Of a DNA stretch of 64,000 bases, positions 14,245-21,778 are shown piece after piece (position 1 is the stretch's first letter; each line of letters starts with the position of its first letter). A program made the position numbers and the translations under genes. Under the pieces are notes generated by a model. The model was not told the origin of the DNA and made no database searches. It saw only the letters and a list, made by a program, of their open reading frames with translations. The stretch comes from Planctomycetota bacterium (GTDB lineage Bacteria; Planctomycetota; Planctomycetia; Planctomycetales; Planctomycetaceae): positions 44,433-108,432 of the forward strand of contig JAURQH010000048.1 in the NCBI GenBank assembly GCA_030836185.1, in the 5' to 3' direction.

Positions 14245-17013
14245 TCAACGAGTGATACCGACATAGAAGGCGAACAACTGTTCTTCGTCGAAATCTTCGG
14301 AGACCAAAGGAATTGCCCAGTCAAAAGCCATCGGAACGGGTCCCATCGCAGGAATTTTCAACCGAATACCGCCACCGACAGTCGCTCGGAAAGAGTTGAA
14401 TCCAACATCTCTTTCCACAGTACCAAAGTCAGAAAACGCAACAACAGCAAATGTTTCATCCGCGGTCACAGGAACCAAATACTGAACAGATCCCAAAGCC
14501 TGAAATTGTCCACCAACCTGAATTCCATTTTCTTTCGGGGAAACTCCTCGGAAATCAAACCCCCGGAAACTCGAATACCCGCCCGCGTAATAGCGCTCGA
14601 AGATCGGCGTGTCATCGCCGGTCCAACCCACGTCACCAGAGAACGATAAGATGTGCTTACCTTGACCGTCGATTCGACTGTATGTTGTAAAGAACTTACT
14701 CGCACTCAAATCGACCCGCGGGTAGTTAAACTCACCAAATCCTTGCTCGTACGATGCCGAGAGGATATGCCCTTCACTGGGAAGGAACGATGAGTCACGA
14801 CTGTCATAGGTCGCATTCACTCGAACTGTCGACAAGAGGTTTGAACCAACCACAGCCAACAAATCATCTGGAGGAGGTGTTCCTCGTGGATCTTCGACTC
14901 TCACATCTTCCAAGCGTAGCGCGACGCCACCCGACCATTCCGGCGTGAATTGATAACCCAGGTTAACTCGACCACCAGTTCGTTGTTCATTCCAGTCTTC
15001 GAGATATCGTTGATAGTAAAACCCGCTCAGCCCCAAACTCACATCTGTGTCGAGGAAATAAGGATTCGTCCAACTTGCGGAATACCGGCTGACTTGGCTT
15101 CCCGGAACAGCCTCTAATCGGAAGGTCTGGCCACCACCTCGAAACGCACGCCCTTCAATAATGTCTTCGACACTGGTCGGAGGGCGGAACAAATCAAAAT
15201 TACGCTCGTCGAGCACAATGTTTCCGACCACACCAGAGTCACTATTCACGCCGGCACCAAACATCAGGCGACCAGTTCGTGCTTCCTGCACGTAAACATC
15301 TAGGTCACCTTCTCGATAAGGCTGCACAAATGGTTGAGGCGGTGAATTAAGTGCTGGCCCGAACGGATCCCCTTGTGGAGAATTATCCCACAACAGGCTC
15401 CCCGGTTGCTCGATGCCATTTTCATAGTTTTGCCCACGAATTGTGGAAGGGTAATCGGCGTCCTGAGATTGTCCGCGGATAACCTTCGGCTCTGCGAAGT
15501 CATCGTTGAGAATCTGCGACAACGGAATTGTGTAAGATGTTTCTTCAACCGATTGACCACGAATAATACCGTTGGGTTGCATAAGTGATCGACTCAAGCG
15601 TGTTTCTTCAATCGGTACAGGACGAAATTTAATGTCAGGCCCACCACCGGGGCCGGCTTCCCATAGTTGTCCCCGATTGACCCTGGCTCGACTCCGACGA
15701 ATTTCAGAGGGGTCGGCCAAATCACCGGGGTACAGAGTAATGGGATTCGTCACCACCGACTCTTTGGTATGCGCCACAGAACGCCCACCATTCCCGACAA
15801 TATGGACATTGACCCGACGAATTCGCCAGACTTCATCCTCATCGACCAGTAACTCCAAATCGATGACGCCGGGTGTTTCTAAAAATTTGGGAACGGCTTC
15901 TACAGTCGCGTTGATACGCCCCATTTTTCCGTATTTCTCTCGAATCTCACTAATATCTTCGTTGAGATTGCGAGTGGTAAAATAATCACCGGGCAAGGTT
16001 TTCATCTCGCGACGAATGGAACCTTCCGAAAGCACATTCATGCCGTTCAGTTCGATGTTTCGTATTCGGTATCGAGGGCCTTCGCTCACTTTGTAGGTAA
16101 TGTAGACACTCTCTTTTTCCGATCCTCTGAACTCGACTGCTTTTTCAATCGTGACGTCGAAGTACCCGAGTGCATTGTAATACGACCTGATTGCCGTCAT
16201 GTCATCGGTGAGTGAAGACGGATCGTACTTCCCACCAAACCATCTCAAAATTCGAGTTTTGGTAAGCAACTTGGTTTTCAGAACGCGAGAGCTGATATCT
16301 TTATTGCCGATAAACTCAACATCGGCGACAGTCACTTTCTTGCCTTCAATAATCTGAAAAACCACTTCCCGCTCGGTTTTACTGGAACCACGCAGCAGCT
16401 TCACCTGAACCGCATTGTATCCCAGACCTTGATATTCCTGTTCGATGCGGCGGGCCGCTTCTCGATTCAGTGCGACATCGTAAGGACTGCCTTTTCGCAA
16501 ACCCGTTAGGACTTCCAAATAGGTGTCGGCATACTTTTCGTTTCCACGAAATTCAACATGCTGAACAATTGGGCGTTCGAGAACTCGAAAAATGACCACT
16601 GGGCCTTTATTGGAATCTTCGACGCGAGGTTCGACACTATAAAACCAGCGAGTGCTGTAAAGTTCTCGCACATCTTCACGAATCTGGCGTGGCGAGAGTG
16701 GACGCCCCGGCTGTGAATTCACTTTTGTAAGAAGTGCTTTCGGCACAATTGTCTGCAAGCCTTCAAATCGAACGTCACCGATAATTTCATCGGTTTCTTC
16801 CAATGCATAGCGTCGGCGTGGCATTGTCGGGCCGCCAAACGAAGGCCCACCCGCTCCCGGAGGAGGTGCACCTGGCTGCGCCATCGCCTCACTCGAAAGA
16901 AAAAGACAAAGCCCGATCACCAGGCAAAACAGACGACAGAAAAATCGCAACTTTCTCGAAGAAATTCGAAAAAGGCGACAACTATCGATTGAGGGTAATA
17001 ATCCAGATGTCAT
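14245..17013 (-). CDS. bamA: outer membrane protein assembly factor BamA (Omp85 family)
   Basis: 922 aa with a signal peptide. It has repeated POTRA-type units (GDVRFEGLQTI, VQHVEFRGNEK, VADVEFIGNKDI, IRNIELNGMNVL, IRRVNVHIVGN). The C-terminal Omp85 barrel carries RYYAGGYSSFRGF and ends in an aromatic-rich strand. Confidence 0.9.
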   Translation of the reverse strand: MTSGLLPSIDSCRLFRISSRKLRFFCRLFCLVIGLCLFLSSEAMAQPGAPPPGAGGPSFGGPTMPRRRYALEETDEIIGDVRFEGLQTIVPKALLTKVNSQPGRPLSPRQIREDVRELYSTRWFYSVEPRVEDSNKGPVVIFRVLERPIVQHVEFRGNEKYADTYLEVLTGLRKGSPYDVALNREAARRIEQEYQGLGYNAVQVKLLRGSSKTEREVVFQIIEGKKVTVADVEFIGNKDISSRVLKTKLLTKTRILRWFGGKYDPSSLTDDMTAIRSYYNALGYFDVTIEKAVEFRGSEKESVYITYKVSEGPRYRIRNIELNGMNVLSEGSIRREMKTLPGDYFTTRNLNEDISEIREKYGKMGRINATVEAVPKFLETPGVIDLELLVDEDEVWRIRRVNVHIVGNGGRSVAHTKESVVTNPITLYPGDLADPSEIRRSRARVNRGQLWEAGPGGGPDIKFRPVPIEETRLSRSLMQPNGIIRGQSVEETSYTIPLSQILNDDFAEPKVIRGQSQDADYPSTIRGQNYENGIEQPGSLLWDNSPQGDPFGPALNSPPQPFVQPYREGDLDVYVQEARTGRLMFGAGVNSDSGVVGNIVLDERNFDLFRPPTSVEDIIEGRAFRGGGQTFRLEAVPGSQVSRYSASWTNPYFLDTDVSLGLSGFYYQRYLEDWNEQRTGGRVNLGYQFTPEWSGGVALRLEDVRVEDPRGTPPPDDLLAVVGSNLLSTVRVNATYDSRDSSFLPSEGHILSASYEQGFGEFNYPRVDLSASKFFTTYSRIDGQGKHILSFSGDVGWTGDDTPIFERYYAGGYSSFRGFDFRGVSPKENGIQVGGQFQALGSVQYLVPVTADETFAVVAFSDFGTVERDVGFNSFRATVGGGIRLKIPAMGPVPMAFDWAIPLVSEDFDEEQLFAFYVGITR

Positions 17014-17319
17014 GCAAACGACTTCCTGATCGTTTCCGGCGTGACGATTGCCGATTCAGTGATTCAAATGGAAGGGAACGACTTCCCCGGAGAGCGTCCG
17101 TGCTCGCCGGGCGAAGGCGTAAACTCACCTTCACCGATCGGATAAGGTATGAACGGGAATTAGTAATGGATAAGTAGAATCCCCACAAGAGGAACCTGAG
17201 TAGAATAAGTCCTGATAATTTGGGGGATTAAGGAAATGCTTTCTCCCACTGACTTCTCCACTTTTTCCCGCTACAATTGAGTTCCCGATTGTCAAATCTA
17301 CAATTTCACCGGACGAACA

Positions 17320-18576
17320 ATGCCCCTCTGGAAGTTTCTCAAACAACTTTTCTTCGGCCACTCGACAGCCACTCAGAGTCCCTCTCAAAACAATTCACGA
17401 AAGCAAAGCCCAGGCGGCAAAACCAAACTTGTCCCCCTTCAGAATCCGCCTCAAAAAACAAAGCTGCCGAACGCTGCTACATCCGACCAGAAGCCTTACC
17501 TCTATGCTCGCAAAGAACCCAGCACGGGACTTTGGATCGATTTGCGAGAGGGAGGCGATGAACAGTTTCTGAGCCGGGAAGGGCTACCAAACTTCACCAC
17601 TCCCGAGGAACTTGCCAACTGGTTGAATATCAAACCGGGGCAATTGGCTTGGCTGACTCATGCATTCGAACCGGGACAGAAAGCAGACTCTGTCGAGAAG
17701 TCTCACTATCACTACCATTGGATCCAAAAACGAAGCGGCGGAGAGAGACTGATTGAATCTCCCAAACCACTTCTGAAACAAGTACAACGGCAGATTTTGC
17801 ACGAGATATTAGACAAGGTTCCCGTCCATCGAAGCTGTCATGGGTTCATCCGAAATCGCTCGATCCTGACTAATGCCAAACCGCATTGCGGTCAGCGAGT
17901 CGTCATTAAATATGATCTCCAAAATTTCTATCCCTCTGTGAGACGGAATCGGATCATCGCGATTTTTCGCGGACTCGGCTACAACCGGGAAGTCTCCATC
18001 TGGCTGGGACGACTCACAACAACCGCGATTCCCAATTCGATCCCGTTCCCGCAAGAGGGACCGAAAGGTTTACGAGACTATCTCTCGGCCCATTTACCCC
18101 AAGGGGCACCCACATCGCCGGCTCTCGCAAATCTCTCTGCGTTTTCACTCGATCTGCGATTACATGGTTTGACCAAGTCCTTCGCAGCCAACTACACCCG
18201 TTATGCAGACGACATCACGATTTCTGGTCCAGATAATTTGATGAAAAGCCTGAAAACACTCATTCCGCTCGTCCAACAAGTGATCCGGGAAGAGCGTTTT
18301 GTCGTTCAGAAAAAGAAACGGAAAGTGATTCGCAACAATCAACGTCAGCAAATTTGCGGCGTGGTCGTGAATCAGCACACCAATTATCCGCGAAAAGAGT
18401 TTGACCGGCTGAAAGCAATCTTGTTCAATTGCGTCCGTTTCGGACCGGGTTCCCAAAATCGCGAGGGAGTTCCGAATTTTCGCGAACATTTGAGCGGACG
18501 AATCGGCTTCGTCAAACAATTAAATCACGGGCGAGGTCAGAAGCTCGAATCACTCTGGCAGCAGATCTCCTGGTAA
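17320..18576 (+). CDS. retron-type reverse transcriptase (RNA-directed DNA polymerase)
   Basis: 418 aa with RT motifs in canonical order. These are WIQKRSGGERLIESPKPLLKQVQRQIL (RT1), RSILTNAKPHCG (NAxxH), VVIKYDLQNFYPSV (motif A), LPQGAPTSPALANL (motif B), YTRYADDITISG (YxDD) and ICGVVVN (in place of the retron VTG). The first ~85 aa are Pro/Gln/Lys/Ser-rich and low in complexity. Confidence 0.85.
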   Translation: MPLWKFLKQLFFGHSTATQSPSQNNSRKQSPGGKTKLVPLQNPPQKTKLPNAATSDQKPYLYARKEPSTGLWIDLREGGDEQFLSREGLPNFTTPEELANWLNIKPGQLAWLTHAFEPGQKADSVEKSHYHYHWIQKRSGGERLIESPKPLLKQVQRQILHEILDKVPVHRSCHGFIRNRSILTNAKPHCGQRVVIKYDLQNFYPSVRRNRIIAIFRGLGYNREVSIWLGRLTTTAIPNSIPFPQEGPKGLRDYLSAHLPQGAPTSPALANLSAFSLDLRLHGLTKSFAANYTRYADDITISGPDNLMKSLKTLIPLVQQVIREERFVVQKKKRKVIRNNQRQQICGVVVNQHTNYPRKEFDRLKAILFNCVRFGPGSQNREGVPNFREHLSGRIGFVKQLNHGRGQKLESLWQQISW

Positions 18577-18601
18577 ACAATTTCATCGTTGGTAAAGTTC
18601 T

Positions 18602-19405
18602 ATGGGGAGCTTCTTTCGAATTCTGGCCAAGCCGGTCACCCGCTTTCTGGTGGGCGTGATCGCGATCCCGTTGTTTCGTTTATTCATGCGTAAAGTCATT
18701 CGGCTTCAGCAACTGGATGCCGAGCTCGAAAAAGATATGGAGCAATGGTTCCGTGGGTCTTTGGTTTTGCTCGTCGCGACTGCCAATATGGAATTTGCAT
18801 TGTTTGGCTGGTTGTATGAACGACCTGAAACGGTTTCAGCACCAAAAACGACGATTTCAAAAGAAGCCGAAAACTTGACAGAGACCGAGGAGCCATACCT
18901 TACAGGTGAGGAAATTGACGAAAACGGGCAGATGAAAAAAATCTCTGCATTGGGCGTCTTGCTGATGGGCTTACGACTACTGCTCGCCATGAGTGTGATC
19001 GAAATGATGCCCGACCAAGAACTCTTTTCGATCATTCATCCCGGCCCTCCCAAAATCAAATACGACAAATCAAAATCACTCTGGCAACACTTCAGAATCT
19101 ATACTTGGCCGATGCTGCGCGGAATTGTTTGCCAGCATCTGAACCGCTCCTCACCCGTGCTGGCAATTTTGTGTGCGATTTTCATGGGTTGGGTCGGCTG
19201 GCTCTGTTACGGATTGGCCATCACCCAATATCTCATCATCGGGTTGGTGACCTCGAAAGACAAAGCCCTCGACGCACTCTCCGAGTTCGACCGTCAGGTC
19301 GCCTTACGACGTCGGGAATTACTGGACGAATTCGATTACATCGAAGAAGAGGTCCAGCGAAAGAATGCCCAAGCCGCGGAAGCGAATACTGCCGAAGACG
19401 AATAG
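18602..19405 (+). CDS. multi-pass membrane protein, putative RT-associated effector
   Basis: 267 aa, starting 25 nt after the RT stop on the same strand. It has four or five hydrophobic segments (FLVGVIAIPLFRLF, SLVLLVATANMEFALFGWL, ISALGVLLMGLRLLLAMSVI, SPVLAILCAIFMGWVGWLCYGLAITQYLIIGLV). The C-terminal tail is acidic and coiled-coil-like. No family recognised. Confidence 0.6.
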   Translation: MGSFFRILAKPVTRFLVGVIAIPLFRLFMRKVIRLQQLDAELEKDMEQWFRGSLVLLVATANMEFALFGWLYERPETVSAPKTTISKEAENLTETEEPYLTGEEIDENGQMKKISALGVLLMGLRLLLAMSVIEMMPDQELFSIIHPGPPKIKYDKSKSLWQHFRIYTWPMLRGIVCQHLNRSSPVLAILCAIFMGWVGWLCYGLAITQYLIIGLVTSKDKALDALSEFDRQVALRRRELLDEFDYIEEEVQRKNAQAAEANTAEDE

Positions 19406-19408
19406 TTG

Positions 19409-19436
19409 TTGACAGAATTTCGCGTACGACGACAAT
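19409..19436 (+). promoter_or_regulatory. candidate sigma-70-type promoter for the downstream frameshifted gene
   Basis: TTGACA (19409..19414), a 16-nt spacer, then GACAAT (19431..19436). An AGGAG Shine-Dalgarno (19457..19461) sits 7 nt before ATG 19469. This is a consensus match only. Confidence 0.3.
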
Positions 19437-19468
19437 TGATGCGATCCTGTCGGAATAGGAGTTCATCA

Positions 19469-20303
19469 ATGCGACTGCAATCACTACTTGTCAGCTTGAT
19501 ATGCTTGATAGTGCCCCCTCAAGGTAAATGCTGAGGATGATCCTCGACTCACGAAAATTCTGGAGAGTTGGAAGACCGCCCCCGAAGGTCTAGAAAGTTG
19601 TCATATCTCAGGTAGGCTTTTTCACTACGACCATGTTTTCGAAAAAGAGAGTCGTGCAGAGTTTAGGATTCACTGGGACCGACGGAAAAAGAGAGAATTC
19701 TCTACATTACCAGCCGAAATATCTCCACTCGCGGTTTCTCAAATTCTCAATCGATGTGGCATACCCTATCAGTTCGAAAAGTCAGCACACTCGAAATTCA
19801 TCTGGTCATTAGACAACACTGTCTCACAAATAGACTGGGAGACAAGAAAAGAAACTCACCTTGGGATTGCCGGGAATGAGTATTACAGTGCCCTTGAACA
19901 CCTTAATTTTGCAATTCATCCCGCTTTAAGCAAACTCACCGATAAGTACGAATGGCAAATTAAAGAAGAAAAAAAAGATTGTTACGAATTAATCGGAGTC
20001 CGACCTTACGCCCGAGGAGAGTTGAGCGTATTTAGCCAAAACAAAGCAAGCAATTCAGAGAACACTCAACAAGTCCATCTCATCGTCAGCAAAAACGATC
20101 ATTCCATTAGGGCGGTCAAGCTTCCAAATCCTGCAAAAACAGTAGAAAAGGTGTTTGTGATAACAAAAAGAGAGTTCAGCCCACGCACCACAACTATTTG
20201 CTTTTTTGATTGGGATAAGACACCACGGAAAACGGCAACTCAGCCTGAAACTTACTCGTCACAAAATCCGCTTTATGCAGTGATTGAAATGCTCCTTCCC
20301 TAA
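19469..20303 (+). pseudogene. secreted hypothetical protein gene interrupted by a +1 frameshift in a C5 run
   Basis: The ATG at 19469 encodes a signal peptide (MRLQSLLVSLICLIVPPQGKC) and stops at 19532..19534. The +1 frame is open from 19512 to 20303 (264 codons) with no ATG/GTG/TTG before 20022. Removing one C from CCCCC (19514..19518) gives a continuous ~277-aa protein with a VNA-ED signal cleavage-like site. Confidence 0.6.
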
Positions 20304-20401
20304 TCATTTACGTAACCGACAACTTACTCGCCGCGAGTGGTCAGGATTGCTAGAATAAGTCTCTCAAATTCAAGAACTGCAATTTCCGATCAGAGACACC
20401 C

Positions 20402-21778
20402 ATGAGCCTTTCTATCACCAAAATTGACTGTTCCCAGGACGCTGCCGAAGATCTCTTCAGTCAGTTACGTGAAAAATTGAGCCCGCGTGGAGACGTCGTC
20501 TCCGAAGCCGGTAAACAGCGCACGATGGAACTGTTTGGCGAGCCACTCTCTCCCCAGCAAGTCGTCGAAAAAATCTGCCGGGATGTGCAGGAAGGTGGAT
20601 TGAAATCACTCCTCGATTACTCGGCCAAACTCGACGGCAAACAGCTCACACTCGAAACGATGCGAGTGTCGGAAGCAGAACTCGATGCGGCACACGAGGC
20701 GGCTGATGACAACTATTTGGAAACCATTCGTCGAATTCGAGAAAGCATCATTCTGTTTCAGAGTGAAATCCTGCCTGAGAATGTGCAAATCATTCGCGAA
20801 GTCGGTAGTGGAGCAGGGGAGATCGATCTCAGGCAACGATATTTGCCCCTCAAACGCATCGGGATTTGTGTTCCCGGTGGTGCTGCCGCGTATCCCTCGA
20901 CGTTATTGATGACAGCCGTACCAGCCCAAACAGCCGGCGTCGCGGAAATTGTTGTCGTTGTACCTCCCACGGAGTTTGGTGGCTATAACACTGATCTATT
21001 GGCGGCGTGCAAAGAAATCGGTGTGACTGAAGTCTATCGTGTGGGGGGCGCCCAAGCGGTGGCCGCCCTCGCTTATGGTGTTGAAGGAATCGAACGGGTC
21101 GACAAAATTGTTGGTCCCGGGAACCTGTTTGTGGCACTTGCGAAGAAACATGTCTTCGGTGAAGTCGATATCGATAGCATTGCCGGACCGAGCGAAGTGA
21201 TTGTGCTTGCCGACAAAACCGCCAATCCTGAATACATCGCCGCCGACCTGATCTCACAAGCCGAGCATAGTCCCGGTTCGGGCGTGTTGATTACCTGGCA
21301 TGCTCCTCTGATTGATGCGGTTCACGCGGCGCTGGAATCGCAGTTAGAAACGCTCGAACGGGGAGATCTTGCCCGTCGTGCCCTTGAAGACTACGGCGCG
21401 TTGATTCTCGCCCGCGATGCAGACGAAGCCGCGCGATTAACGGATTTACTCGCCCCCGAGCATTTGCACATCTCGATGGATGACCCTGAATCAATGCTCG
21501 AACAAGTCCAGAACGCCGGTGCGATCTTCATGGGAAATTTCACACCCGTCGCATTGGGTGACTATCTTGCCGGTCCTTCGCACGTCTTACCAACAGGAGG
21601 GACCGCACGATTCGCGAACGGACTCAGCTCGATTGATTTTCTCAAACGATCGTCGATCATTGGCTATAACCGTGAGGCGCTTGCAGAAGCCGACCGAGAT
21701 CTCAAGTTGATGACCGACAAAGAAGGACTGACCGCTCATTACGCCAGCGCGGCAATTCGCTTGCAACCGGAGCCTTGA
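20402..21778 (+). CDS. hisD: histidinol dehydrogenase
   Basis: 458 aa with HisD-typical segments. These are GICVPGGAAAYPSTLLM, AGPSEVIVLAD, DLISQAEHSPGS and GDYLAGPSHVLPTGGTARF. Confidence 0.95.
   Translation: MSLSITKIDCSQDAAEDLFSQLREKLSPRGDVVSEAGKQRTMELFGEPLSPQQVVEKICRDVQEGGLKSLLDYSAKLDGKQLTLETMRVSEAELDAAHEAADDNYLETIRRIRESIILFQSEILPENVQIIREVGSGAGEIDLRQRYLPLKRIGICVPGGAAAYPSTLLMTAVPAQTAGVAEIVVVVPPTEFGGYNTDLLAACKEIGVTEVYRVGGAQAVAALAYGVEGIERVDKIVGPGNLFVALAKKHVFGEVDIDSIAGPSEVIVLADKTANPEYIAADLISQAEHSPGSGVLITWHAPLIDAVHAALESQLETLERGDLARRALEDYGALILARDADEAARLTDLLAPEHLHISMDDPESMLEQVQNAGAIFMGNFTPVALGDYLAGPSHVLPTGGTARFANGLSSIDFLKRSSIIGYNREALAEADRDLKLMTDKEGLTAHYASAAIRLQPEP

What the first reader, a model, noticed from the sequence alone, without database searches (positions are those of the whole stretch)
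17320..19405. Retron-type reverse transcriptase coupled to a multi-pass membrane protein: candidate retron-like defence module in a planctomycete
The ORF at 17320..18576 carries the full RT motif series. The variants are the ones I associate with retron RTs such as Ec86: the NAxxH element (NAKPH), LPQGAPTSPALANL, YTRYADDITIS, and a C-terminal region where retrons have VTG (here ICGVVVN). A 267-aa protein with four or five hydrophobic helices and an acidic tail starts 25 nt downstream on the same strand. Known retron systems are tripartite (RT, msr/msd ncRNA, effector), and one described architecture is RT plus a two-TM effector (Ec48-like). This locus differs in several ways: VTG is replaced, the RT has a low-complexity ~85-aa N-terminal extension, the membrane partner is larger with more helices, and I could not find an msr/msd RNA. 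The pair sits between core genes (bamA and hisD). I am not aware of an experimentally characterised retron from Planctomycetota, but I cannot check this here.
Basis: partly seen in the sequence, partly recalled or inferred. Interest (0 to 1): 0.8.

Follow-up and report, generated by a model that had tools for sequence, protein, structure and literature searches.

The report
Chromosomal planctomycete retron lacking its usual RNA
The gene is a genuine retron-type reverse transcriptase from a previously undescribed retron family that Planctomycetaceae inherit vertically at a fixed chromosomal site, but this genome's branch has lost the family's usual template RNA, and the neighbouring membrane protein is a widely conserved gene that often occurs without the reverse transcriptase.

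Summary
ORF 17320-18576 encodes a retron-type RT: YADD, NAKPH, and ICG at the VTG position. All top PADLOC, NCBIfam and PDB matches are retron RTs. A 267-aa, 4-5-helix membrane protein gene starts 25 nt downstream.

The RT belongs to a large, slowly evolving planctomycete clade that falls outside the 13 named retron types. The likely ancestral site is MR_MLE-M50-[ncRNA-RT]-TM-mutL.

In 31 of 42 RT loci I found a ~185-nt upstream RNA that is not in Rfam. It has retron msr/msd hallmarks: an 18-bp a1/a2 stem, two opposing invariant Gs, and a variable long hairpin. Of its 42 pairs, 28 show compensatory changes, and 0 of 500 shuffles reach that.

The window's own clade, rearranged next to bamA, lacks this RNA. 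It carries an unrelated, strongly conserved ~200-nt non-coding element (17003-17200) whose RNA nature is unproven.

The TM gene follows the RT in 39 of 42 loci. It also occurs without the RT in 40 of 80 species genomes, matches no known effector, and is equally conserved there. It is therefore unlikely to be a classical retron toxin. RT and TM are both under purifying selection (dN/dS about 0.05-0.16).

Verdict: a new variant of a known kind, of moderate to high interest.

The parts
17320..18576 (+). Retron-type reverse transcriptase gene, 418 aa. N-terminal conserved motif MPLWKFLKQLFFG at 17320-17358, NAKPH at 17872-17886, YADD at 18202-18213, and ICG (the VTG position) at 18352-18360.
   Evidence: ORF. 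Pfam RVT_1 at 1.8e-20. PADLOC RT_other 8.7e-127, RT_outgroup 4e-120, RT_XIII 9e-103. All PDB hits are retron RTs, with Ec86 at 2.9e-31. Motif coordinates. dN/dS 0.07-0.11 within the clade.
18602..19405 (+). Conserved 4-5-pass membrane protein with a cytoplasmic coiled and acidic tail. It is an orphan family restricted to Planctomycetaceae-like lineages. It is a syntenic neighbour of the RT and possibly its partner.
   Evidence: ORF. No Pfam, PADLOC or NCBIfam hit. 1356 homologues and 60 invariant columns. Only 143 representatives among 1.84e9. AF2 pLDDT 72.8 with no Foldseek match in PDB or BFVD. Hydropathy. dN/dS 0.05-0.16.
17003..17200 (+). Strongly conserved non-coding element and the only candidate for a replacement ncRNA in this clade. 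Predicted hairpins lie at 17009-17045, 17081-17121, 17125-17152 and 17156-17183, with a possible closing stem 17002-17008 / 17218-17224. It overlaps the bamA start codon and SD on the opposite strand. The strand assignment is tentative.
   Evidence: 88% identical to L005 and L091, where adjacent bamA codons are 39-46% identical and RT synonymous sites are saturated. RNAalifold structure. Covariation is insufficient, at 47/500. G.U asymmetry slightly favours the + strand, 295 against 286 of 311 cells. Not related to the R1 RNA in normal or permuted order. Found only in six clade members.
16975..17002 (+). Sigma-70-like promoter match (GCGACA-16-AATAAT) just 5' of the conserved element, inside the first bamA codons on the opposite strand.
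   Evidence: Pattern scan. This is a consensus match only. Six sites were found against 3.8 expected in the region.
17249..17304 (+). Two overlapping promoter-like sites (CTGACT-17-TACAAT and TTGAGT-16-TACAAT) containing a direct repeat CTACAATT. They are conserved in the clade and in L008, and lie 15-70 nt upstream of the RT ATG.

Best explanation
The locus is a derived member of an undescribed, vertically inherited chromosomal retron family of Planctomycetaceae.

Shown: the RT is a functional retron-type enzyme. Its catalytic YADD, NAxxH and V/I-x-G motifs are intact, and it is under purifying selection.

Shown: in most relatives a single promoter-like site precedes a ~185-nt msr/msd-type RNA, followed by the RT. 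This RNA has an a1/a2 duplex, an unpaired invariant G directly 3' of a1 and another 5' of a2, a conserved msr hairpin CUGCGGGG-AUA-CCCCGCGG, and a sequence-variable msd hairpin. Inferred from retron biology: the RT would prime on the 2'-OH of the G after a1 and copy the msd hairpin into a roughly 60-80-nt msDNA.

Shown: the cassette sits at a fixed core-genome site directly upstream of a conserved membrane-protein gene.

Shown: in the window's branch a rearrangement placed RT-TM next to bamA and the canonical RNA is gone. An unrelated, highly conserved ~200-nt non-coding element (17003-17200) occupies its place. Inferred: this element is either a replacement template or regulatory RNA for the RT, or a shared bamA/RT control region.

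Inferred: the TM protein is most likely an independently functional conserved membrane protein. It is probably co-transcribed with the RT (25-nt gap) and possibly modulated by it. It is unlikely to be a classical toxin held in check by msDNA, because half of the related species keep it without the RT.
For: RT class. The top 25 PADLOC hits are all retron RT models. The NCBIfam top hits are retron families, while group II, Drt2 and Drt3 score far weaker. All 14 PDB hits are retron RTs.

Family size and conservation. 5965 proteins match at E <= 1e-10. The RT core is 62-80% identical across more than 100 clusters.

ncRNA. Model R1 hits 31 of 42 RT loci, 12 of which were not in the training set. 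Every hit is on the RT strand, 40-290 nt upstream. There are no hits in the RT-less TM loci. On the model alignment, 95.6% of cells are paired against 77% in shuffles. 28 of 42 pairs carry double changes, and 0 of 500 shuffles reach this. Slid controls pair at 36-44%. Both opposing Gs are invariant. Rfam has no match.

Vertical inheritance. The synteny MR_MLE-M50-RT-TM-mutL recurs. RT presence is mostly consistent within clades of the TM tree. GC content shows no anomaly. dN/dS is 0.06-0.14.

Window clade. There is no R1 hit, even with filters off over all 64 kb. The element is 88% conserved against 39-60% in its flanks.

TM independence. 40 of 80 species loci lack the RT within 10 kb, including one with M50(-) directly next to TM. 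The invariant TM motifs are shared by RT-less Rubinisphaera proteins.
Against: No msDNA or transcript data exist, so every RNA end, the branching G and reverse transcription itself are inferred.

The window-clade element has too little variation to prove a structure (47 of 500 shuffles reach it). It overlaps the bamA SD and start codon, so it may belong to bamA. The sister clade L094/L095 keeps RT-TM with no conserved upstream RNA at all. This raises the possibility that these RTs work without an adjacent template.

RT-TM adjacency survives at least five different contexts, which argues for some functional coupling that my 'mostly syntenic' reading may underrate.

One search shows only that no named isolate of those genera appears among the top 120 hits.
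Confidence: 0.6

Rival explanations
1. This is the first reader's model: a classical tripartite retron defence system. The RT and its RNA/msDNA hold the multi-pass TM protein in check. Phage infection releases the TM protein, which permeabilises the membrane and causes abortive infection.
For: The RT is retron-type. The TM gene lies within 600 nt downstream, on the same strand, in 39 of 42 RT loci and across at least five different flanking contexts. The gap is 25 nt in the window. RT-plus-TM retron architectures are known: Mestre et al. describe clade 3 RTs with 2-TM proteins. The RT has a conserved amphipathic N-terminal motif that could contact a membrane partner.
Against: The TM gene is retained, equally conserved, in 40 of 80 species without the RT. 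For a toxin whose antitoxin is RT-msDNA, losing the RT should be lethal or should be followed by toxin decay. The RT|TM junction has been broken at least three times (L089, L093, L010), about as often as the flanking junctions. TM matches no PADLOC effector model at E <= 1. The locus is not in a defence island and lacks mobility genes. It shows vertical inheritance with strong purifying selection rather than patchy, fast-evolving distribution. The window lacks the canonical ncRNA.
Confidence: 0.25
2. The conserved 17003-17200 element has nothing to do with the RT. It is the 5' leader or regulatory region of bamA on the minus strand. In this model the RT of this clade, like that of L094/L095, has no adjacent template RNA. 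It acts on another RNA in trans or has a non-msDNA function.
For: The element starts at bamA codon 4 and includes the bamA start codon and SD (AGGAAG on the minus strand), read directly. It is found only in the clade where bamA and the RT are adjacent. L094/L095 keep a selected RT (dN/dS 0.06) with only 125-190 nt upstream and no conserved RNA. A separate conserved promoter-like site lies between the element and the RT.
Against: The G.U pattern favours the + strand: 16 G.U cells would become A.C mismatches on the minus strand, against 7 in the opposite sense. No minus-strand promoter-like site was found in 16900-20450. L008 also has bamA next to the RT, with 58% bamA identity, but does not conserve the element. 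Distant bamA loci L024 and L050 lack it too. All of these are weak tests.
Confidence: 0.3
3. The RT is not a retron RT. It belongs to another prokaryotic RT class, such as group II intron, DGR, Abi, or UG/DRT.
For: Weak secondary hits to group II RT (E = 2.6e-12), Drt2 (E = 2e-9) and Drt3a (E = 3e-7) appear. This is expected for any RT domain.
Against: Retron models score 100 or more orders of magnitude better. All PDB hits are retron RTs. NAxxH and the VTG-position motif are present. Relatives carry an a1/a2-type RNA with opposing Gs. There is no intron RNA domain, maturase domain or DGR template/variable repeat; no such repeats were reported.
Confidence: 0.02

Closest known systems
Retron type XIII (RT clade 10 of Mestre et al. 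2020; myxobacterial Mx162/Mx65-like)
   Same: It is the best-scoring named retron type in PADLOC (RT_XIII, E = 8.7e-103). The RT carries an N-terminal extension, and the PADLOC alignment begins at profile position 75. Inheritance is vertical and tracks the host, with chromosomal fixation, as Mestre et al. report for type XIII. A 2026 survey preprint bins 26 Planctomycetota RTs as type XIII.
   Different: The 'RT_other' and 'RT_outgroup' models score higher than RT_XIII. No WH-SWIM (cluster 114) or HEAT/ARM partner gene lies next to the RT; the neighbours are bamA, the TM gene and hisD. The associated RNA matches no Rfam family. I did not compare it directly with Mestre's type XIII ncRNA model. 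The host phylum is different.
Retron-Eco1 (Ec86) RT, the closest solved structure (7V9U, 8QBK)
   Same: The RT fingers, palm and thumb align over residues 130-369 at E = 2.9e-31. NAxxH, LPQGAPxSPxLAN, YADD and the VTG-position motif all fall in register.
   Different: Identity is only moderate. The window RT has about 125 extra N-terminal residues and a ~20-residue insertion at 235-254. It has ICG in place of VTG. The Ec86 effector is a nucleoside deoxyribosyltransferase-like protein (my own knowledge), not a TM protein. Ec86 is a patchy, mobile defence element.
RT + 2-TM retrons (Ec48-like; clade 3 RTs linked to 2-TM proteins in Mestre et al.)
   Same: The gene order is RT followed by a small membrane protein on the same strand.
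   Different: The TM protein here is larger (267 aa, 4-5 helices plus a coiled acidic tail). It matches no PADLOC model. It is conserved in genomes that lack the RT. The RT does not score best to the corresponding types.
Stand-alone (msr-msd)-RT cassettes (branches of RT clades 2 and 11, Mestre et al. 2020)
   Same: ncRNA-RT is the tight unit. It occurs without the TM gene in L089 and L093. Mestre et al. discuss possible 'domestication' for vertically inherited retrons.
   Different: The RT clade and RNA are different, and here a single conserved neighbour follows the RT in 93% of loci.

Membership tests
Retron (RT + msr/msd ncRNA; Mestre et al. 2020 criteria) | RT domain with catalytic YxDD that matches retron RT profiles better than other RT classes | tested here: met
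   YADD is present in 40 of 40 family members. PADLOC retron RT models reach E = 1e-127, against 2.6e-12 for the group II RT model. All PDB hits are retron RTs.
Retron (RT + msr/msd ncRNA; Mestre et al. 2020 criteria) | NAxxH motif in region X, between RT2 and RT3 | tested here: met
   NAKPH at aa 185-189 aligns to NATPH of Ec86. NAxxH is present in all 40 relatives.
Retron (RT + msr/msd ncRNA; Mestre et al. 2020 criteria) | VTG motif in region Y | tested here: inconclusive
   The window has ICG at the position aligned to VTG of Ec86. Relatives carry VTG (28), VAG (5), ICG (4), VCG (2) and IAG (1), and the G is invariant. This is a conservative variant, not a loss of the region.
Retron (RT + msr/msd ncRNA; Mestre et al. 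2020 criteria) | Adjacent ncRNA with a terminal a1/a2 duplex, two opposing Gs, msr hairpin(s) and a long msd stem-loop, assessed in relatives | tested here: met
   R1 hits 31 loci. On the model alignment 95.6% of cells are paired, 28 of 42 pairs are compensatory, and 0 of 500 shuffles reach this. The Gs after a1 and before a2 are invariant.
Retron (RT + msr/msd ncRNA; Mestre et al. 2020 criteria) | Adjacent msr/msd ncRNA, assessed in this window | tested here: not met
   There is no R1 hit with filters off in the locus or in all 64 kb. Rfam finds nothing. The permuted model finds nothing. The conserved element 17003-17200 is a candidate, but its structure is unproven (47 of 500 shuffles reach it). 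It also lacks a clear a1/a2 duplex with opposing Gs.
Retron (RT + msr/msd ncRNA; Mestre et al. 2020 criteria) | Production of branched msDNA | not testable with these tools
   This needs nucleic-acid extraction or RT-DNA sequencing.
Tripartite retron defence system | A dedicated effector gene that co-occurs and co-evolves with the RT and is toxic when unrestrained | tested here: inconclusive
   TM is adjacent in 39 of 42 RT loci. It is also present without the RT in 40 of 80 species. The RT/TM distance correlation gives Pearson 0.79 but Spearman 0.18. TM matches no PADLOC model. Toxicity was not testable.
Retron type XIII | Linked WH-SWIM (cluster 114) protein, with or without a HEAT/ARM accessory protein | tested here: not met
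   The neighbours are GHMP-kinase-like, DUF447, bamA, TM, hisD, STAS and an HtrA-like protease. No such partner lies within the flanks in any of the contexts seen.
Retron with 2-TM effector (Ec48-like / I-B2-like) | Effector homologous to the known 2-TM retron proteins | tested here: not met
   PADLOC finds no family for the TM protein at E <= 1. The topology is 4-5 helices.

The most novel reading that the evidence does not exclude
This is a domesticated retron. The ncRNA-RT cassette became a fixed, vertically inherited core-genome component in Planctomycetaceae and serves a cellular function tied to the adjacent conserved membrane protein, for example in the envelope or membrane. In the window's lineage the RT has switched to a new, non-homologous RNA (17003-17200) or to a template-RNA-independent mode. 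That would be a natural example of retron template replacement, in a lineage where the RT stays under strong purifying selection.
Probability: 0.2. Interest if true: 0.85.

Novelty: new variant of a known kind. Interest (0 to 1): 0.62.

Why it matters
Retrons are usually patchy, fast-evolving defence islands. Whether any have been domesticated for other cellular roles is an open question, raised by Mestre et al. for the myxobacterial type XIII.

This family would give a second, independent case in a different phylum. Several features make it tractable:
- It has a clear ancestral chromosomal site.
- Its RT evolves slowly.
- It has a well-defined new msr/msd-type RNA that is not in Rfam.
- Natural 'experiments' exist: lineages that lost the RT but kept the TM gene, lineages that separated RT from TM, and lineages, including this window, that kept RT-TM but lost or replaced the RNA.

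These contrasts make testable predictions about what the RT needs and what the TM protein does. A cultured host, Gimesia maris, carries the canonical version. The compact new ncRNA-RT pair may also be of interest for retron-based genome editing.

Tried and rejected
1. Rfam scan of the locus. Only two chance-level hits, mir-1549 and a PA5194 thermometer, at E > 1.

2. Generic repeat search for a1/a2 in 16900-20500. Nothing convincing.

3. The Gimesia-type ncRNA model R1 against the window, with default filters and with filters off, over the locus and over all 64 kb. No hit above 13.6 bits.

4. The idea that the window element is a circularly permuted R1 RNA. It was suggested by 'CUUCACCGAUCGG...GGUGUGA' preceding 'CCCCACAAG'. 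The permuted model R2 found no match at E <= 1, so I rejected it.

5. The idea that 17160-17186 is an a1 arm with its a2 arm downstream. An RNAduplex scan gave only bulged, non-conserved partners.

6. A systematic search for conserved long-range 7-mer duplexes in the clade alignment. Only two were found, and neither was terminal.

7. The window-type model R3 against L008, L094, L095, L050, L024 and others. No match.

8. A test of the bamA-leader hypothesis using bamA loci not adjacent to the RT (L024, L050). No similarity, but these loci are too distant to be decisive.

9. Structure-based function for the TM protein. Foldseek against PDB and BFVD gave nothing better than E = 0.7. A profile search of 1.84e9 proteins found no remote relatives.

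10. Apparent RT-TM 'fusion' proteins P0369 and P0326. They are frameshift or gene-call artefacts.

11. A metagenome scan with the RT. It returned only one extra locus.

12. A check of whether RT-less genera keep the RT elsewhere. The last homology search shows no named isolates of those genera among the top 120 hits, which is not conclusive.
Full report
**1. Observation**

The RT is at 17320..18576 (+), 418 aa. The TM protein is at 18602..19405 (+), 267 aa. The gap between them is 25 nt.

All quoted RT motifs are present. In a phmmer alignment to the solved Ec86 RT, NAKPH falls on NATPH and ICG falls on VTG. Pfam RVT_1 matches at E = 1.8e-20.

The TM protein has hydrophobic segments at about 15-33, 53-71, 114-132 and 183-216, and an acidic coiled C-terminal tail. 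bamA (14245..17013, minus strand) is the upstream neighbour and hisD (20402..21778) lies downstream. GC content of RT and TM (0.50) equals the window average.

**2. What the RT is**

The 25 best PADLOC models are all retron RTs. The order is RT_other (8.7e-127), RT_outgroup (4e-120), RT_XIII (9e-103), then types III-A, II-A, XII, XI and others.

NCBIfam gives retron St85, TIR and Ec67 families, all below their curated cut-offs. Group II, Drt2 and Drt3 score far weaker. All 14 PDB hits are retron RTs.

So this is a retron-type RT outside the 13 named types. It belongs to a very large and unusually conserved clade. 5965 proteins match at E <= 1e-10, and the core is 62-80% identical across more than 100 clusters. 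All named members are Planctomycetaceae or Planctomycetota.

VTG is the norm in the clade (28/40). The middle residue varies (T, A or C) and the G is invariant, so ICG is a minor local variant.

The '85-aa low-complexity extension' has structure of its own. It has a conserved N-terminal amphipathic motif (MGLFDFLRRLFFG-like; MPLWKFLKQLFFG here). This is followed by a variable basic, Pro-rich linker, then conserved L.PLRY and PY.FAR segments.

**3. The TM protein and its relation to the RT**

The TM family has no Pfam, PADLOC or NCBIfam match. It has no structural relative in PDB or BFVD. A profile search found no remote homologues among 1.84e9 representatives, with only 143 hits. The family is nevertheless strongly conserved, with 60 invariant columns such as MPDQELFSIIHPGPP, CQHLNRSSPV and QYLIIGLVTS.D.A.D.L..FD.

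A scan of species-representative genomes found 230 species with a relative. Of the 80 best loci:
- 31 have the RT directly upstream.
- 40 have at least 2 kb of upstream sequence and no RT within 10 kb.
- 9 are too short to tell.

Among all 42 distinct RT-bearing loci I collected:
- 39 have the TM gene within 600 nt downstream.
- One (L010) has a two-gene insertion between RT and TM.
- Two (L089, L093) have no TM gene nearby.

The commonest arrangement, and probably the ancestral one, is MR_MLE(+)-M50(-)-[RNA-RT](+)-TM(+)-mutL(+). Variants include:
- Gimesia: ...TM-topA(-).
- The window clade and L008: DUF447-bamA(-)-RT-TM-hisD.
- L094: cyt b followed by RT-TM.
- L095: GATase(-)/RT-TM/SGL(-).
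- RT-less genomes: TPR(-)-TM-mutL, or M50(-)-TM.

RT presence is mostly consistent within clades of the TM tree, with two mixed clusters. Both genes are under purifying selection everywhere tested. RT dN/dS is 0.06-0.14 and TM dN/dS is 0.05-0.16.

I read this as follows. The RT cassette is a vertically inherited resident of a core-genome site. The TM gene is an independently functional conserved gene. The RT|TM junction has broken about as often (three or more times) as the flanking junctions. Adjacency therefore argues only moderately for functional coupling.

**4. The missing RNA is found in relatives**

Aligning the regions upstream of the RT in Gimesia-type loci revealed a conserved ~185-nt block. 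Its parts, in order:
- a promoter-like site, TTGACG-N17-TACGAT;
- an a1 arm (UGGGCAGUGGGUCGCACAA), immediately followed by an invariant G;
- a variable hairpin;
- an invariant hairpin, CUGCGGGG-AUA-CCCCGCGG;
- a long hairpin of variable sequence;
- UUCG.CACAGGA..G;
- an a2 arm (UUGUGCGGCCCGCUGGCC);
- a T-run.

RNAalifold on 19 sequences gave 42 pairs, 23 of them with compensatory changes.

A covariance model (R1) then found the RNA in 31 of 42 RT loci, 12 of which were unseen in training. Every hit lies on the RT strand, upstream of the RT. No RT-less TM locus has a hit.

On the 25-sequence model alignment, 95.6% of cells pair, against 77% in shuffles and 36-44% when partners are slid. 28 of 42 pairs carry double changes, and 0 of 500 shuffles reach any measure. 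The msd-like hairpin covaries at 12 of 13 pairs.

The unpaired Gs flanking the inner end of a1/a2 are invariant. This matches the 'two opposing G residues' of canonical msr/msd transcripts described by Mestre et al.. Rfam has no family for this RNA. At family level the computational hallmarks of a retron are therefore met. msDNA synthesis itself is inferred.

**5. The window's own clade is different**

R1 finds nothing in the window, with filters on or off, over the locus or the full 64 kb. It also finds nothing in the five other members of the bamA-adjacent clade (L005, L007, L090, L091, L092), in L008, or in L094/L095.

Instead the six clade members share a different non-coding block, 17003-17200. 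It is 88% identical to L005 and L091, where adjacent bamA codons are 39-46% identical, the downstream spacer is 52-60% identical, and RT synonymous sites are saturated (pS 0.74).

RNAalifold predicts four hairpins and a weak closing stem. With so little variation the structure cannot be validated: there are 2 compensatory pairs, and 47 of 500 shuffles reach the observed values.

G.U wobble asymmetry mildly favours the RT strand. A promoter-like site ends at 17002, just 5' of the block. Two more promoter-like sites lie at 17249-17304, between the block and the RT.

The block overlaps the bamA SD and start codon on the other strand, so a bamA leader or shared control region is a live rival. I tested and rejected a circular-permutation relationship to R1. 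I also found no relative of the block outside the clade.

The RT in this clade is as constrained as elsewhere (dN/dS 0.07-0.11), and its distance to other clades is typical (core identity about 0.56-0.61). It is therefore not decaying.

**6. Mechanism (best estimate)**

At family level, the ncRNA and RT are co-transcribed. The a1/a2 duplex presents the G after a1. The RT primes on its 2'-OH and copies the msd hairpin into a short msDNA. This is inferred by analogy with retron biology.

What the RT-msDNA complex does in these organisms is unknown. The classical model, in which msDNA restrains a toxic effector, fits poorly with TM genes that thrive without the RT.

I favour a chromosomally fixed, possibly domesticated retron. 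Its link to the TM protein is co-transcription or modulation rather than toxin-antitoxin. In the window's branch either the 17003-17200 element has replaced the template RNA, or the RT works without an adjacent one.

**7. Comparison and novelty**

The closest named group is type XIII, the myxobacterial, vertically inherited type whose RT also has an N-terminal extension. Its WH-SWIM/ARM partners are absent here, and generic 'other' and 'outgroup' models score higher. The closest solved RT is Ec86.

I found no characterised planctomycete retron in the literature. A 2026 survey preprint merely bins 26 Planctomycetota RTs as mostly low-confidence type XIII.

I rate this a new variant of a known kind:
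- an unclassified retron clade with a new ncRNA family;
- core-genome fixation in a new phylum;
- a sub-lineage, this window's, that has lost or replaced the RNA.

**8. Limits**

There are no expression or msDNA data. The trees are simple distance clusterings. Promoter calls are consensus matches only.

Noticed in passing
window 19406-20303: The ~1 kb between the TM gene and hisD is not empty. It holds a frameshifted homologue (27% identity over 225 aa) of a 292-aa secreted protein found at the same position in L091. The signal peptide is in one frame (19469-19533) and the mature part is in the +1 frame, running to 20303. GC is 0.43 against 0.50 for the window. The close relative L005 has only 113 nt at this position.
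   Followed up: partly
TM family (window 18602-19405; P0004, P0009, P0032, P0044, P0064 and others): NCBI names many members of this membrane-protein family 'DNA topoisomerase I', although they have no Toprim or Topoisom domain. In Gimesia the real topA gene lies immediately downstream on the other strand, so this looks like propagated misannotation.
   Followed up: partly
window 17273-17280 and 17299-17306: A direct repeat CTACAATT occurs twice between the promoter-like site and the RT start codon. It is conserved in the clade and in the more distant L008. It could be tandem -10 boxes or an operator.
   Followed up: no
L092:3225-3310 (equivalent to window about 17121/17122): One clade member has an ~85-nt insertion in the middle of the conserved non-coding element, right after the long GC-rich hairpin. 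The rest of the element is retained.
   Followed up: no
L094:3376-3500 and L095:1473-1661: A separate RT-TM clade (RT 76% identical between the two, about 55% to all others, dN/dS 0.06) has only 125-190 nt upstream of the RT. It has neither the R1 RNA nor the window-type element. The two loci share only a GGTATGATCGG motif there. This looks like an RT kept without any recognisable adjacent ncRNA.
   Followed up: partly
L010:7369-10000: In one Gimesia MAG two genes are inserted between the RT and the TM gene. One is a 367-aa protein with a prepilin-type N-terminal methylation motif, which looks like the planctomycete DUF1559 type (recognised by eye; no family scan was run). The other is a 194-aa lipoprotein-like ORF.
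   Followed up: no
window 17320-17358 and 18602-18640: The RT and TM proteins both start with a similar short N-terminal motif, MG/MP-[LSG]-[FLW]-x-[FI]-L, which is amphipathic and hydrophobic. It is conserved across both families. Its significance is unknown.
   Followed up: no
P0369, P0326 (metagenome proteins): Apparent RT-TM fusion proteins in the 50% representative library are gene-call artefacts. P0369 is an RT C-terminus that runs, after a frameshift, into the TM gene. The N-terminal 320 aa of P0326 are low-complexity with no domain.
   Followed up: yes
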